Positions 10,813-13,217 of a stretch of DNA of 64,000 bases are shown piece after piece. The stretch spans positions 64,001 to 128,000 of IMG/VR virus record IMGVR_UViG_3300021091_000001; one strand, 5' to 3'. Source of the stretch: a virus (Duplodnaviria; Caudoviricetes). Position numbers and translations under genes: made by a program. How positions within the stretch are numbered: the stretch's first letter is position 1; each line of letters starts with the position of its first letter. Below the pieces are notes generated by a model. That model saw only the letters and a program-made list of their open reading frames with translations. It was not told the origin of the DNA and searched no databases.

Positions 10813-11994
10813 ATGATCTATGACTATAATTTGTTTACTCCAGAAAATGTTTTTACCTTAACTCTTCGCGGAAATCCTCAGTTTATAGAATCATCTATGG
10901 TTGCCAAGTATACTTGTTCTATATACGACATGAAAAAAAGATATGATTCTTTGCATCCTTCCATGACACTTCGGGATCAAGACCATCTGTATCCTTTAGC
11001 TGTTAGGTATATATCTCCTATGCGAGACTTCTACGTCATAGAACGTCCTCCGTTTCTTTTGGATGAGGTAGATTTTTCTACAGCTAAATCTTACAGGCAA
11101 AGAAAAACTCCGAAACTACTCAATAATAGATCTATTTGGATTCCTTGGACTATTGCCATTATTGCCATAAGAAATGGCGTGTATTCTTTTTATCTGTTTT
11201 TCAATGATGGTCCGCTTCAATCTATAGACGATAAGATTGTTTCAGCTTATCTTCCCAACATTGGCCATGGCGGCCAAGTATGTATGGGCCAAGATTCCAG
11301 TACAGCAATGGATAAATTTCAAGAAACACTTTCTGTTACAGAAATGTATAAGTCTTTGTTTAACATGTATTTTTCTGGTTGGAACACTGACATTTGGAAT
11401 TCTAGTTACAATATCAAATATTTTGATGATAACGGTATTCTTAAGAGAATTCAGTCTCTTAAATCATCTCCTAAAGATTTTTACGAAATTTTAGTGTATG
11501 GTCGATCTAGTGTTGCTAAGTATTTTAAATCTTTTTTGTTTCTTCTTTCTCATCTTACTTTACAAGAACATTTAGATTATGTTACTCATATTAAAAACAA
11601 TTCTCATAATGTTTTCAAGTTGTCTAAAGTTATTTCTCAACAACTTCCTGGTGGTTTAATTCTAGAGGAAGTTATTGTCAGAAAAATAGACAGATCTTTT
11701 TCCAAACAACAAATTGGTTATACAAATAGTCTTTTTTCTGAACATTTTGAATCTAGTCAAGTATCTAAAAGCATAACTCTTTATGTGAATAATATCCCAT
11801 TTTTTGATGGCCAACCGCCTTTGCGATACGATAATGATAAAGTTTATTCTATGGTTAGCGATCCTAAAGCAATTGCTGAGATTTATCAGCAGATGATGGC
11901 TCAATACAAAAATTCTGATTCTTCCTTTGTTCAAAACATTCATATGAATTATTCTGATCTTCACAGCGTTGTTGTTCAAGAAGGAGCGTTATGA
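10813..11994 (+). CDS. second Prok-E2 family D-like protein
   Basis: WIPWT...AYLPNIGHGGQVCMG...YFSGWNTD. Confidence 0.65.
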   Translation: MIYDYNLFTPENVFTLTLRGNPQFIESSMVAKYTCSIYDMKKRYDSLHPSMTLRDQDHLYPLAVRYISPMRDFYVIERPPFLLDEVDFSTAKSYRQRKTPKLLNNRSIWIPWTIAIIAIRNGVYSFYLFFNDGPLQSIDDKIVSAYLPNIGHGGQVCMGQDSSTAMDKFQETLSVTEMYKSLFNMYFSGWNTDIWNSSYNIKYFDDNGILKRIQSLKSSPKDFYEILVYGRSSVAKYFKSFLFLLSHLTLQEHLDYVTHIKNNSHNVFKLSKVISQQLPGGLILEEVIVRKIDRSFSKQQIGYTNSLFSEHFESSQVSKSITLYVNNIPFFDGQPPLRYDNDKVYSMVSDPKAIAEIYQQMMAQYKNSDSSFVQNIHMNYSDLHSVVVQEGAL

Positions 11995-13217
11995 TAACCC
12001 CATCTACTTACATTTTTGCTGACGATATCTCTTATCCATATGCAGAACTAACTACTGGCAATACAAATCTACAATACTCTTATGCTAATACTCAACGTTC
12101 TGAAGCTTCTAGGTTCATGAATTTAAAGTTAAGTAGCAATTATTCTATCAAAGAATCTACAATTTCTTATGAAAACGATTCTTACATTGATATATTTGAC
12201 GACTATCTTTCCATACTCAATACAGAGAACCAATATAATGACTTGATATTTCCTGGTTTAAGATACGCTTCTGAGGGAATATTAATCTTTGAAAGACCTC
12301 CTACTTACAAAGTTTTAGACATTAGTAGAGACTATCAGGCGAACATAAATTCTCATACTTTGCAATCGGAATATTATTTGCCAATTCCTTGGCAGGTATA
12401 CATTGCAATGTACAATCCTGCAACCATGCGACTAGTTGCAGTAAAAATGTTTTTTACATCTACTTCATTGTTTGATTTTAATCAAGCTGTTTTTGCTCCT
12501 CCTTTGTATAATTTTTATTCTAACGGAATGTTATGTAGACCATTCTTTGAGTCTATAGACGATATTGAGAAATATCCTAAAACATATTCTGGCGTTATTG
12601 CTTCTGCTTACGATTGGATCTGGAACAGTGGTTTCAACTTTGATATTACTGAAAATATTTCTCAATTTCTTCAAAGCAAAAATTTCTATTCTTTTGAACC
12701 ATATTTGACAAGCGCTTCTGCTAAAGCTTCTTACCATCTACTTGTTAATAATCCCATTCATGCAATTCTCAACAGATTAGATTTTATCTATGCTAAGAAT
12801 TTCTACAATTGTTGGCAGAATATAGCTCTTAAAGATATTTCTTCTGTTTCTTGGTCACCATATACATATTCGGATTTTTATTATCAAGAGCGAGATACTA
12901 TTTCTGACTATGCACTAGATATTTATTTGGATCAAACAGGAAACTCTTATTGTTCCTGTGACTGTGAGAGTTGTTTAGAATACTCGCAATGTTGTACTGA
13001 CGAAGATAATCTTCATCTTTCGGATATACATCATGACCCTTTATACATTAAAATTGTTGACAATTTAGTGAATAAAGATCCTAAACCTCTTCAAAAAGCT
13101 TATAAAGATTCTGTTTTGTTTTTAGCAAAAAACAAGATTTCTATGAAAAGTGCTTTTAAATCTAAGTCTTATGAAGTTTTTGCTAAAATGTCTGAAAAAA
13201 TACAGATTACTTCTTGA
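11991..13217 (+). CDS. third Prok-E2 family D-like protein with Cys-rich tail
   Basis: PIPWQ...PPLYNFYSNGMLC...WNSGFNFD; CSCDCESC..CC. Confidence 0.62.
   Translation: MITPSTYIFADDISYPYAELTTGNTNLQYSYANTQRSEASRFMNLKLSSNYSIKESTISYENDSYIDIFDDYLSILNTENQYNDLIFPGLRYASEGILIFERPPTYKVLDISRDYQANINSHTLQSEYYLPIPWQVYIAMYNPATMRLVAVKMFFTSTSLFDFNQAVFAPPLYNFYSNGMLCRPFFESIDDIEKYPKTYSGVIASAYDWIWNSGFNFDITENISQFLQSKNFYSFEPYLTSASAKASYHLLVNNPIHAILNRLDFIYAKNFYNCWQNIALKDISSVSWSPYTYSDFYYQERDTISDYALDIYLDQTGNSYCSCDCESCLEYSQCCTDEDNLHLSDIHHDPLYIKIVDNLVNKDPKPLQKAYKDSVLFLAKNKISMKSAFKSKSYEVFAKMSEKIQITS

What the first reader, a model, noticed from the sequence alone, without database searches (positions are those of the whole stretch)
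10813..13217. Two further E2-D-like paralogues 4 kb downstream of the single E1/Ubl
Both keep P.PW, the 'PN/YN..G.xC' Cys motif and W/F-S-G-W/F-N-x-D, and share an 'FxxERPP' N-terminal motif. Three divergent E2s for one E1 and one Ubl suggests substrate-specific branches, possibly replacing E3s (inference).
Basis: partly seen in the sequence, partly recalled or inferred. Interest (0 to 1): 0.6.

Follow-up and report, generated by a model that had tools for sequence, protein, structure and literature searches.

The report
Two extra phage E2-like enzymes
A 202-kb lake-water phage that already carries its own ubiquitin-like tagging kit also has two more, always-paired genes for distant relatives of the tag-carrier (E2) enzyme. 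Each keeps the catalytic cysteine, so this phage group probably runs three carrier branches from one activating enzyme and one tag, although no activity has been tested.

Summary
ORFs 10813-11994 (F1, 393 aa) and 11991-13217 (F2, 408 aa) are real, translationally coupled genes and ancient paralogues (hhalign 97.4%, E 1e-11).

A merged profile of their core matches confirmed plasmid Prok-E2_D (PF14460) proteins at 96.7% (E 4.4e-10). The invariant Cys (C157 in F1, C182 in F2) falls on the family's conserved Cys in the same N-x4-G-x2-C frame.

AlphaFold models (pLDDT 81-82) match almost only E2/UBC structures over the core, at modest Z (4-6).

In the complete phage genome the core profile hits exactly three places: F2, F1 and the operon's E2. 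There is one ThiF-type E1 and one Ubl.

The F1-F2 pair sits in the same conserved gene block, downstream of E2-JAB-E1-Ubl-AAA+, in all IMG/VR relatives where the position is covered. It was not found in 185,579 prokaryote species genomes or in GenBank phages.

Both proteins fall below Pfam's cut-off and are about 400 aa with their own extensions, so they are divergent viral variants of family D.

Thioester charging by the phage E1 and target-specific branches without E3s remain inference.

First-stage readers noted the same three-E2 pattern in two other genomes of this scan.

The parts
10813..11994 (+). F1 gene, 393 aa: fast-evolving E2-like paralogue
   Evidence: ORF. 37 homologue clusters, all unnamed metagenome or virus proteins. 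AlphaFold2 model with pLDDT 82.1.
10972..11592 (+). F1 UBC/E2-like domain (residues 54-260)
   Evidence: pdb_via_wide: about 37 of 50 rows are E2/UEV proteins, Z 5.0-5.6, 120-134 residues aligned. pdb_via: 49 of 50 rows are E2 enzymes and the other is the E2-variant-like FTS; Z up to 6.0. Pfam Prok-E2_D E 0.0065, below cut-off.
11257..11283 (+). F1 active-site loop, N149-x4-G154-x2-C157 (C157 codon at 11281-11283)
   Evidence: Translation LPNIGHGGQVCMG. N149, C157 and G159 are invariant in 34 homologues. The loop aligns to PLPN..G.iC.G of confirmed Prok-E2_D proteins.
11980..11994 (+). GAAGGAG ribosome-binding site and ATGA stop/start overlap that couples F2 to F1
   Evidence: Read directly from the sequence.
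11991..13217 (+). F2 gene, 408 aa: slower-evolving E2-like paralogue
   Evidence: ORF. 204 homologue clusters. AlphaFold2 model with pLDDT 81.4, pTM 0.72.
12243..12857 (+). F2 UBC/E2-like domain (residues 85-289)
   Evidence: pdb_via_wide: the top three rows and about 25 of 50 rows are E2 proteins, Z 4.0-5.0, 114-136 residues aligned. 22 of 44 family members give a sub-threshold Prok-E2_D match. A profile built only from plasmid E2_D proteins hits here at E 2.1e-5 in a six-frame search of the genome.
12510..12536 (+). F2 active-site loop, N174-x4-G179-x2-C182 (C182 codon at 12534-12536)
   Evidence: Translation LYNFYSNGMLCRP. N174, C182, R183 and P184 are invariant in 44 homologues.
2087..3907 (+). 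Context: the operon's own E2-like protein, the third and most distant paralogue (matched segment 2357-2521), with a C-terminal multi-CxxC region
   Evidence: The F1/F2 core profile hits it at E 1.5e-5 and nothing else in the genome. The A2 core HMM hits its orthologues at E 7e-5 to 4e-4. Six invariant CxxC pairs.
3931..5625 (+). Context: JAB/MPN peptidase
   Evidence: Pfam Prok-JAB, 28 bits, above cut-off.
5646..6392 (+). Context: the only ThiF-type E1 in the genome
   Evidence: Pfam ThiF, 43 bits. Single match in the whole genome.
6404..6655 (+). Context: the only copy of the Ubl, ending ...RRAGEKG
   Evidence: Translation. Single copy in the genome.
6805..8406 (+). Context: AAA+ ATPase that opens the tightly packed run of genes ending with F1, F2 and the small 13275-13589 gene
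   Evidence: Pfam AAA, 83.5 bits. Gene spacing. The same order is kept in the related phage loci.

Best explanation
F1 and F2 are two divergent, phage-specific members of the prokaryotic E2 family D lineage, which has the UBC fold. Each has a roughly 200-residue E2-like domain with an intact active-site loop (Asn, then Cys 8 residues later), plus its own N- and C-terminal extensions.

The most likely mechanism is as follows.
1. The phage's single ThiF-type E1 adenylates the C-terminal glycine of the single phage Ubl.
2. The Ubl passes as a thioester to C157 of F1, to C182 of F2, or to the Cys of the operon's own E2.
3. Each E2 then transfers it directly to a different set of target lysines, chosen by its own extensions, without a separate E3.
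4. The JAB peptidase reverses the mark.

Shown here: homology, fold, the position and invariance of the Cys and Asn, the 3:1:1 gene count, and co-inheritance of the pair. Inferred: charging by this E1, catalysis, absence of an E3, and distinct targets.
For: **Homology to family D**
- The merged F1/F2 core profile (A4) matches ten plasmid Prok-E2_D proteins (A5) at 96.7%, E 4.4e-10, over 119 columns. PN..G..C lies on PLPN..G.iC.G.
- Two of the ten A5 proteins were confirmed above Pfam's cut-off, at 82.9 and 40.3 bits.
- Plain HMM searches work in both directions. A4 finds the annotated E2 family D protein of Nostoc PCC 7120 (E 1.6e-8). A5 finds only F2 (2.1e-5) and F1 (1.7e-3) in the phage genome.
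- PF14460 is the one recurring Pfam match in both families: 9 of 34 and 22 of 44 members.

**Fold**
- The structure lists are dominated by E2 enzymes covering nearly the whole UBC core.

**Catalytic residues**
- E, PP, PW, N, C and N-x-D are invariant across 43 sequences of both families.

**Gene count and linkage**
- The genome has exactly three E2-like places, one E1 and one Ubl.
- F1 and F2 are adjacent in every related locus that covers the position. All 31 loci with enough upstream flank show the E1 and Ubl, and 24 also reach the operon E2.
- The F1 and F2 subtrees show the same groupings of phages.
- F2 is translationally coupled to F1.
- The Ubl ends in Gly.
Against: - Neither protein reaches Pfam's gathering score: 16.7 and about 13 bits against 25.
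- The structural Z-scores are modest (4-6), and Foldseek alone found nothing at E <= 0.001.
- No residue-level structural superposition was available, so the Cys position rests on profile alignment, motif spacing and secondary-structure order.
- No member of family D, on plasmids or in PRTRC cassettes, has a demonstrated activity that I know of.
- F1 and F2 are separated from the E1/Ubl by an AAA+ gene and five small genes.
- All co-occurrence data come from one phage clade with conserved gene order, so linkage may reflect ancestry rather than function.
- The classical E2 His of the HPN motif is absent.
Confidence: 0.55

Rival explanations
1. F1 and F2 work only together, as one obligate complex. 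Either they form a heterodimeric E2, or they form a cysteine relay in which one partner plays the role of an E3-like second thioester carrier or substrate adaptor. That would make two branches (the operon's E2, and F1-F2), not three.
For: The two genes are adjacent in every related locus covering the position, and overlap or nearly abut. F2 is translationally coupled to F1 through an SD site and an ATGA overlap. Their subtrees show the same phage groupings. F1 sits on a very long stem and evolves faster, as expected of a specialised partner.
Against: Both keep an invariant Cys and Asn, unlike the Cys-less UEV partner in the known Ubc13-Mms2 pair (my own knowledge). No complex prediction or co-variation test could be run. 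Adjacency is also what a simple tandem duplication leaves behind.
Confidence: 0.2
2. F1 and F2 have the E2 fold but no longer carry the phage Ubl. They would be Ubl-binding or regulatory proteins, or use the Cys for a different chemistry, and sit in this block only because of shared ancestry.
For: Both score below family thresholds. They have large lineage-specific extensions. They are 4 kb from the E1/Ubl, beyond other genes. Linkage comes from a single clade with conserved gene order. Family D itself has no tested function.
Against: Asn and Cys are strictly invariant at the canonical 8-residue spacing in two families that have otherwise diverged to about 20% identity. That is hard to explain without catalysis of the E2 type.
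Confidence: 0.13
3. F1 and F2 are counter-defence proteins aimed at host ubiquitin-like immunity (Bil, Bub or CBASS Cap2-type systems). They would intercept the host's activated Ubl or occupy its E1 as decoy E2s.
For: They are found only in viruses: none in 185,579 prokaryote species genomes. The gene block appears to be early. F1's fold resembles a bacterial Bub E2 as well as it resembles eukaryotic E2s (9eav_D, Z 5.2). Bacterial Ubl pathways are known anti-phage systems (PMC10557695).
Against: The phage supplies its own E1 and Ubl, and these travel with F1/F2 in every locus that covers them. There is no sequence similarity to Bil, Bub or Cap2 proteins (PADLOC was not searched). The host is unknown.
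Confidence: 0.1

Closest known systems
Prokaryotic E2 family D (Pfam PF14460), as in the [helical protein]-E2-JAB-ThiF cassettes of cyanobacterial conjugative plasmids (e.g. Nostoc PCC 7120 pCC7120beta, Stanieria pSTA7437.01). These look like operon type 6d of Iyer et al. 2006, PMC1779556; that equation is my own.
   Same: They match profile to profile (96.7%, E 4.4e-10). They share the PP, P-x-P/W, N-x4-G-x2-C and N-x-[HD] motifs in the same order. Both lack the classical HPN histidine. Both are associated with a small ThiF-type E1, a JAB peptidase and a Ubl.
   Different: F1 and F2 fall below Pfam's cut-off. They are about 400 aa instead of 220-270 aa, with private N- and C-terminal extensions. 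They form their own viral clades (99/100 support). They occur as a tandem pair in addition to the cassette's own E2. They lie 4 kb from the E1. The plasmid cassettes' upstream helical protein is unrelated to them.
PRTRC cassette (ParB-related, ThiF-related; NCBIfam TIGR03734-03741), e.g. on the Pseudomonas luteola plasmid NZ_CP044084.1
   Same: It contains one E2_D-like protein directly upstream of a small ThiF-type E1, plus a Ubl (protein C). The phage E1's best NCBIfam match is PRTRC_ThiF.
   Different: The phage proteins score far below the PRTRC cut-offs (30.9 against 144.75 bits for the E1; no match for F1/F2). No PRTRC-type ParB, protein E or protein F was seen among the ten proteins scanned. 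PRTRC has one E2, not three.
The gp214-gp215-gp216 cassette of the cultured jumbo Bacillus phage vB_BceM_WH1 (LC597490.1); phage Edson has a related ThiF gene
   Same: It is a phage-borne E2_D-like / JAB-like / ThiF cassette. gp214 is hit by the plasmid E2_D profile (E 9e-15) and by the F1/F2 core profile (E 3e-9). gp215 has a weak JAB match. gp216 is the closest E1 among GenBank phages.
   Different: Only one short (241 aa) E2-like gene was seen next to that E1. tblastn found no F1 or F2 orthologue in the 50,697 GenBank phage records.
Canonical eukaryotic E2 enzymes (UBC fold; UbcH5, Ube2S, UbcH10, Ubc9)
   Same: The predicted fold covers nearly the whole UBC core: 120-134 of about 150 residues, Z 5-6. 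The Cys lies 8 residues after an invariant Asn, the same spacing as Asn77-Cys85 in UbcH5 (my own knowledge).
   Different: Sequence identity is about 10% and no sequence-level match was found. The HPN His is replaced by Leu or Tyr. There is an extra segment between the Cys and the following conserved helix motif. There are large extra domains. No E3 partner is known.
Bacterial anti-phage Ubl pathways (Bil, Bub, CBASS Cap2/Cap3; PMC10557695, PMC11601596)
   Same: They use E1, E2 and JAB/DUB proteins with a Ubl and work without a classical E3. The Citrobacter BubCD E2 appears among F1's structural matches (9eav_D, Z 5.2, 96 residues aligned).
   Different: Those systems are host-encoded defences, usually with one E2, often fused to the E1. 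Here the genes belong to the phage, the E2s are separate proteins, and there are three of them. No sequence similarity was detected.

Membership tests
UBC/E2 fold superfamily | Alpha/beta UBC fold: a four-stranded antiparallel sheet followed by the active-site loop and C-terminal helices | tested here: met
   F1 residues 54-260: 49 of 50 pdb_via rows are E2 enzymes and the other is the E2-variant-like FTS (Z 5.1-6.0, 120-138 aligned, rmsd 3.4-4.9). About 37 of 50 pdb_via_wide rows are E2/UEV. F2 residues 85-289: about 25 of 50 rows, Z 4.0-5.0. The Z-scores are modest; the weight comes from the enrichment and the coverage. Strand and helix order in the models fits the fold.
UBC/E2 fold superfamily | Catalytic Cys in the loop after the last core strand, 8 residues after the Asn of the (H)PN motif | tested here: met
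   LPN149-x7-C157 in F1 and YN174-x7-C182 in F2. Both residues are invariant in 43 sequences. They align to the conserved N and C of confirmed Prok-E2_D proteins. The loop follows strand 141-144 (F1) or 166-168 (F2) in the models. No residue-level structural superposition was available.
UBC/E2 fold superfamily | His of the HPN motif | tested here: not met
   Leu147 in F1 and Leu172/Tyr173 in F2 stand in its place. Iyer et al. 2006 (PMC1779556, Table 1 row 6d) describe the same loss in E2-like proteins of Ubl/JAB/E1/E2 operons.
UBC/E2 fold superfamily | Forms a Ubl thioester when supplied with E1, Ubl and ATP | not testable with these tools
   This needs a biochemical assay.
Prok-E2_D (Pfam PF14460) | Score at or above Pfam's gathering cut-off (25 bits) | tested here: not met
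   F1 scores 16.7 bits (E 0.0065). F2 gives no protein-level match and 13.3 bits in the six-frame search. The best member of either family reaches E 3.7e-4.
Prok-E2_D (Pfam PF14460) | Homology to confirmed members by profile comparison | tested here: met
   A4 against A5: 96.7%, E 4.4e-10. A1 against A5: 81%. A2 against A5: 80.5%. Reciprocal HMM hits.
Prok-E2_D (Pfam PF14460) | Family motif P-L-P-N-x4-G-x2-C-x-G, followed by W..F..S.F-N-x-[HD] | tested here: met
   F1 has L-P-N-x4-G-x2-C-M-G. F2 has Y-N-x4-G-x2-C-R-P, so the last Gly is lost. Both have G-[WF]-N-x-D at the position where plasmid members carry N-x-H or N-x-D.
Prok-E2_D (Pfam PF14460) | Gene lies next to a JAB peptidase and a ThiF-type E1 | tested here: inconclusive
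   The genes are on the same strand, in the same conserved block, and co-occur in every locus with enough flank. But they are 4-6 kb away, beyond an AAA+ gene and five small genes, and another E2-like gene holds the cassette position.
Prok-E2_D (Pfam PF14460) | Stand-alone single-domain protein of about 220-270 aa | tested here: not met
   F1 is 393 aa and F2 is 408 aa, with N-terminal (about 55 and 85 aa) and C-terminal (about 130 and 120 aa) extensions. The plasmid proteins are 220-270 aa.
PRTRC system (NCBIfam TIGR03734-03741) | Component proteins reach the NCBIfam equivalog cut-offs, and a ParB-related gene is present | tested here: not met
   Among ten proteins of 1012-13214 there are only far-sub-threshold matches: PRTRC_ThiF at 30.9 against 144.75 bits and PRTRC_A at 16.8 against 101.8 bits. 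F1 and F2 match nothing.
Bil / Bub / CBASS Cap2 E2 domains | Sequence or close structural similarity to those E2 domains | tested here: inconclusive
   BubCD (9eav_D) appears at Z 5.2, no better than eukaryotic E2s. The PDB sequence-profile search found no E2. The PADLOC library was not searched.

The most novel reading that the evidence does not exclude
A whole clade of roughly 200-kb freshwater jumbo phages runs a self-contained ubiquitin-like conjugation network without E3s. One E1 and one Ubl feed three diverged E2-type enzymes, and each enzyme's private domains pick different host or phage targets. It would be a virus-encoded, branched ubiquitin-like conjugation system in the prokaryotic world, a kind not described in the papers I could search.
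Probability: 0.35. Interest if true: 0.8.

Novelty: new variant of a known kind. Interest (0 to 1): 0.55.

Why it matters
Prokaryotic ubiquitin-like conjugation is currently understood mainly as host defence (Bil, Bub, CBASS Cap2) or as uncharacterised plasmid cassettes (family D, PRTRC), typically with one E2 per E1.

Here the genes belong to the phage, and the E2 has multiplied to three conserved paralogues. Two of them form large viral families with no annotation. A core-profile search found 1,612 clusters at 50% identity with E <= 1e-3, and 288 with E <= 1e-30.

If all three are charged by the one E1, this would be a simple natural case of target specificity built from E2 duplication rather than from E3s. 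That would be relevant to how the eukaryotic E2 repertoire arose. It would also show that phages, and not only their hosts, use Ub-like tagging.

Even the modest result is useful. It gives a fold, a catalytic residue and a testable partner set to hundreds of 'hypothetical' phage proteins. It also points to cultured Bacillus jumbo phages with the single-E2 cassette as a bench model.

Tried and rejected
**Searches that found nothing for F1 or F2**
- PHROGs and NCBIfam gave no match.
- A sequence-profile search of the PDB gave no hit for A2 and only chance SRP68 hits for A1.
- Foldseek against the PDB gave no match at E <= 0.001. F1 had only weak Ubc9/Cdc34 rows at E 0.06-0.3, and F2 had none. 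The exhaustive VIA-align search was needed.
- tblastn of F1 and F2 against 50,697 GenBank phages found nothing.
- A scan of 185,579 prokaryote species genomes with the F2 alignment found no relative.
- Scans of IMG/VR with the most divergent members, P0156 and P0037, found nothing.

**Searches that did not reach the distant relatives**
- The third word-indexed protein search, with the 151-aa core profile, aimed at short Prok-E2_D-annotated proteins. It returned only 4 unannotated hits.
- The exhaustive representative search listed only close F-type proteins in its top 150. The distant tail could not be inspected.

**Tools or options that were unavailable**
Contexts came from IMG/VR loci only.
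- The genome search could not be centred on a named taxon.
- The A4 alignment had no stretch conserved enough for a genome-contig scan.

**Idea tested and rejected**
- I asked whether the ~270-aa protein upstream of E2_D in plasmid cassettes is a second E2, which would make the tandem pair ancestral. hhalign gave under 1% against A5, A2 and A1.

**Literature**
- No paper in the library mentions PF14460/Prok-E2_D by name.
- The 2021 jumbo-phage overview (PMC7824862) does not mention JAB, ThiF or Ubl.
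Full report
**What is there**

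The finding's coordinates match two ORFs on the + strand exactly. F1 is 10813-11994 (393 aa) and F2 is 11991-13217 (408 aa). F2's ATG overlaps F1's TGA (ATGA), and a GAAGGAG ribosome-binding site lies 4 bases upstream of that ATG. The two genes are therefore probably translated as a coupled pair.

The window comes from a complete 202,043-bp virus record with direct terminal repeats. It is about 33% G+C in this region.

Upstream on the same strand lie, in order:
- an E2-like protein with a Cys-rich tail (2087-3907);
- a JAB peptidase (3931-5625);
- a ThiF-type E1 (5646-6392);
- an 83-aa Ubl ending in Gly (6404-6655);
- an AAA+ ATPase (6805-8406);
- five small ORFs.

From the AAA+ gene to the small gene after F2 (13275-13589), neighbouring ORFs overlap or lie at most 58 bases apart. 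The best promoter-like site in the first 18.5 kb lies just after that run, at 13694-13721. This is only a consensus match.

**Are the two proteins related to each other?**

Yes. BLASTP gives 25% identity over 187 residues, E 1e-3. With family alignments (A1, 34 F1 homologues; A2, 44 F2 homologues), hhalign gives 97.4% probability, E 1e-11, over 196 columns.

HMMs of each family's core find the other family's ORFs in related phages at E down to 1e-15.

In a merged 43-sequence core alignment (A4), nine positions are invariant across both families (F1 numbering):
- E77, P79 and P80 (the 'ERPP' motif);
- P111 and W112 ('PW');
- N149 and C157;
- N191 and D193 ('GWN-x-D').

F1 has W-I-P-W and Y-V-I-ERPP.

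**Are they E2-like?** Four lines of evidence agree.

1. *Pfam.* Prok-E2_D (PF14460) is the only recurring match. It is always below the 25-bit cut-off:
   - F1 scores 16.7 bits;
   - 9 of 34 F1-family members and 22 of 44 F2-family members match;
   - in a six-frame search of the whole phage genome, the model rings only at F1 and F2.

2. *Comparison with confirmed family members.*
   - I fetched confirmed family D proteins by following the phage E1 to plasmid cassettes. Two score 82.9 and 40.3 bits on PF14460, and several are annotated 'prokaryotic E2 ligase family D protein'.
   - Their alignment (A5) matches the merged phage core at 96.7%, E 4.4e-10, over 119 columns.
   - A profile built only from these plasmid proteins finds F2 (E 2.1e-5) and F1 (E 1.7e-3), and nothing else, in the phage genome.
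   - The phage-only profile finds the Nostoc PCC 7120 E2_D protein.

3. *Structure.*
   - AlphaFold2 models with these alignments are confident in the core (pLDDT 82.1 and 81.4).
   - Foldseek alone was inconclusive.
   - Exhaustive VIA-align against 48,161 PDB representatives gave lists dominated by E2/UBC/UEV proteins. About 37 of 50 rows for F1 (residues 54-260, Z 5.0-5.6, 120-134 aligned) and about 25 of 50 for F2 (residues 85-289, Z 4.0-5.0).
   - A second look at Foldseek's top 1000 chains for F1 gave 83 chains at Z >= 5. Of the 50 rows listed, 49 are E2 enzymes and one is the E2-variant-like FTS; Z reaches 6.0.
   - The Z-scores are modest. The weight comes from the enrichment and from near-complete coverage of the ~150-residue UBC core.

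4. *ESM Atlas.* Its nearest clusters point to PF14460 for both proteins. I treat this as a lead only.

**Is the Cys at the active-site position?**

The active-site strings are LPN149-IGHG-G-QV-C157-MG in F1 and YN174-FYSN-G-ML-C182-RP in F2. Confirmed family D proteins carry PLPN-x4-G-x2-C-x-G with the same N-to-C spacing of 8. hhalign lays the phage N, G and C on those columns.

The same spacing separates Asn77 and Cys85 of UbcH5. That figure is from my own knowledge and was not tested here.

In the models the loop follows the last core strand and precedes the first long helix.

The classical HPN histidine is absent. Iyer et al. (PMC1779556) reported the same for the E2-like proteins of Ubl/JAB/E1/E2 operons. 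The invariant Asp of 'GWN-x-D' aligns with a position that is His or Asp in the plasmid proteins.

I had no model coordinates.

**How many, and how conserved?**

The merged core profile hits exactly three places in the complete genome:
- F2, at E 5.5e-51;
- F1, at E 7.7e-46;
- the operon's E2, at 2357-2521, E 1.5e-5.

The operon's E2 is the most distant of the three. hhalign gives only 2-33% against F1 and F2, and 29% against plasmid E2_D. It has an insert between the Asn and the likely catalytic Cys.

There is one ThiF match and one Ubl copy.

In 35 IMG/VR loci (about 20 distinct phages, mostly 170-270 kb contigs) the whole block is kept in the same order. It runs from the operon's E2 through JAB, E1, Ubl, the AAA+ gene, the small genes, F1, F2 and on to SSB and an HslV-like gene. 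F1 and F2 are adjacent in every locus that covers the position.

A maximum-likelihood tree shows the following.
- Plasmid E2_D separates from F1+F2 (99/100).
- F1 is monophyletic on a long stem (100/100) with longer tip branches than F2.
- The same groupings of phages appear in both subtrees.

The duplication therefore predates this phage clade, and both copies have been kept since.

The families are large. The core profile finds 1,612 clusters at 50% identity with E <= 1e-3 and 288 with E <= 1e-30. They appear to be viral only. No relative turned up in 185,579 prokaryote species genomes or in 50,697 GenBank phages.

**How it probably works**

The best reading has four steps.
1. The single E1 activates the C-terminal Gly of the single Ubl.
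2. The Ubl passes to the Cys of any of three E2-type proteins.
3. Each E2 modifies its own targets, selected by its private N- and C-terminal extensions, with no separate E3.
4. The JAB peptidase reverses the mark.

Homology, fold, invariant Asn and Cys, gene counts and co-inheritance are shown. Charging, catalysis and separate targets are inferred.

I put 0.55 on this whole statement. I put about 0.9 on the narrower claim that these are E2-fold relatives of family D with a conserved active-site Cys.

The rivals are:
- an obligate F1-F2 complex or cysteine relay (0.2), favoured by strict adjacency and translational coupling;
- E2-fold proteins no longer linked to the Ubl (0.13), which the invariant Asn-Cys pair makes hard to sustain;
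- decoys against host Ubl-based defences (0.1), for which there is no direct evidence.

All linkage evidence comes from one clade with conserved gene order, so it cannot separate function from ancestry.

**Comparison with what is known**

The closest known kind is prokaryotic E2 family D, in the [helical protein]-E2-JAB-ThiF cassettes of conjugative plasmids and in PRTRC cassettes. These have one short E2 each and no tested function that I know of.

The phage's own E2-JAB-E1 order mirrors that cassette. F1 and F2 are additions to it.

F1 and F2 fail Pfam's cut-off and the family's single-domain architecture, and they match no PRTRC model. I therefore file them as divergent viral variants of the family D lineage, not as members of PF14460 or PRTRC.

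A single-E2 form of the cassette exists in the cultured Bacillus jumbo phage vB_BceM_WH1: gp214 is E2_D-like, gp215 is JAB-like and gp216 is ThiF. Phage Edson has a related ThiF gene. This gives a bench model.

The papers I could search describe host-encoded Bil, Bub and CBASS Ubl pathways (PMC10557695, PMC11601596) and phage tail-assembly Ubl-JAB pairs (PMC1779556). I found no description of a phage-encoded E1/Ubl system with several E2s. The 2021 jumbo-phage overview does not mention JAB, ThiF or Ubl.

**Earlier notes of this scan**

Another agent had already described the upstream operon (e1-5337974). First-stage readers noted the same three-E2 pattern in two other genomes (e1-5368671, e1-5343095). 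I used these only as pointers. Everything above was tested here.

**Limits**

- No model coordinates were available.
- No complex prediction could be run.
- The distant tail of the representative search could not be inspected.

Noticed in passing
L053:9716-12810 (Bacillus phage vB_BceM_WH1, LC597490.1, gp214-gp216): A cultured 230-kb Bacillus cereus phage carries a single-E2 form of the cassette. gp214, annotated as hypothetical, is E2 family D-like (plasmid profile E 9e-15; phage core profile E 3e-9). gp215 has a weak JAB match. gp216 is a ThiF protein. Phage Edson (PV796108.1) has a related ThiF gene.
   Followed up: partly
L038:2291-6705 (Butyrivibrio hungatei plasmid pNP144, NZ_CP017832.1): An unannotated Prok-E2_D protein (40.3 bits), a 558-aa protein with a weak JAB match, Rad52 and a ThiF gene sit beside a helicase, a Pol III delta subunit and SSB. 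The 144-kb 'plasmid' looks phage-like, and its ThiF is the closest plasmid match to the phage E1.
   Followed up: partly
BFVD entry A0A172Q0C7 (Acinetobacter phage vB_AbaM_ME3): A 294-aa uncharacterised protein of this cultured jumbo phage matches the F2 model by Foldseek (E 9e-6, probability 1.00). It may be another E2_D-like phage protein.
   Followed up: no
window 3125-3770 (C-terminal half of the operon's E2-like protein): Six CxxC pairs are invariant across 15 orthologues (C347/350, 369/372, 414/417, 448/451, 466/469, 557/560). They could form three zinc ribbons or treble clefs, and conceivably an E3-like or substrate-binding module fused to that E2.
   Followed up: no
window 12940-13010 (F2 residues ~318-340): A Cys- and acid-rich insert (CSCDCESC...CCTDEDN) lies in F2's C-terminal extension. 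Its length and sequence vary greatly between orthologues, and the model is of lower confidence there.
   Followed up: no
window 15385-15430: A perfect 20-bp inverted repeat (7 G-C pairs, loop of 6) followed by a T-run lies inside the ORF 15356-15796. It is by far the longest terminator-like hairpin in the first 18.5 kb.
   Followed up: no
window 13694-13721: This is the best sigma-70-like promoter match (11 of 12) in the first 18.5 kb. It lies in the 236-base gap upstream of the SSB-like gene, which suggests a new transcription unit starts after F2 and the small 13275-13589 gene.
   Followed up: no
window 10972-10974: F1 has an in-frame CGG (Arg54) in a low-confidence linker and reads through as an intact protein. 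Earlier notes of this scan claim that CGG+N is read as a four-base glycine codon elsewhere in this phage. Here CGG behaves as an ordinary codon.
   Followed up: no
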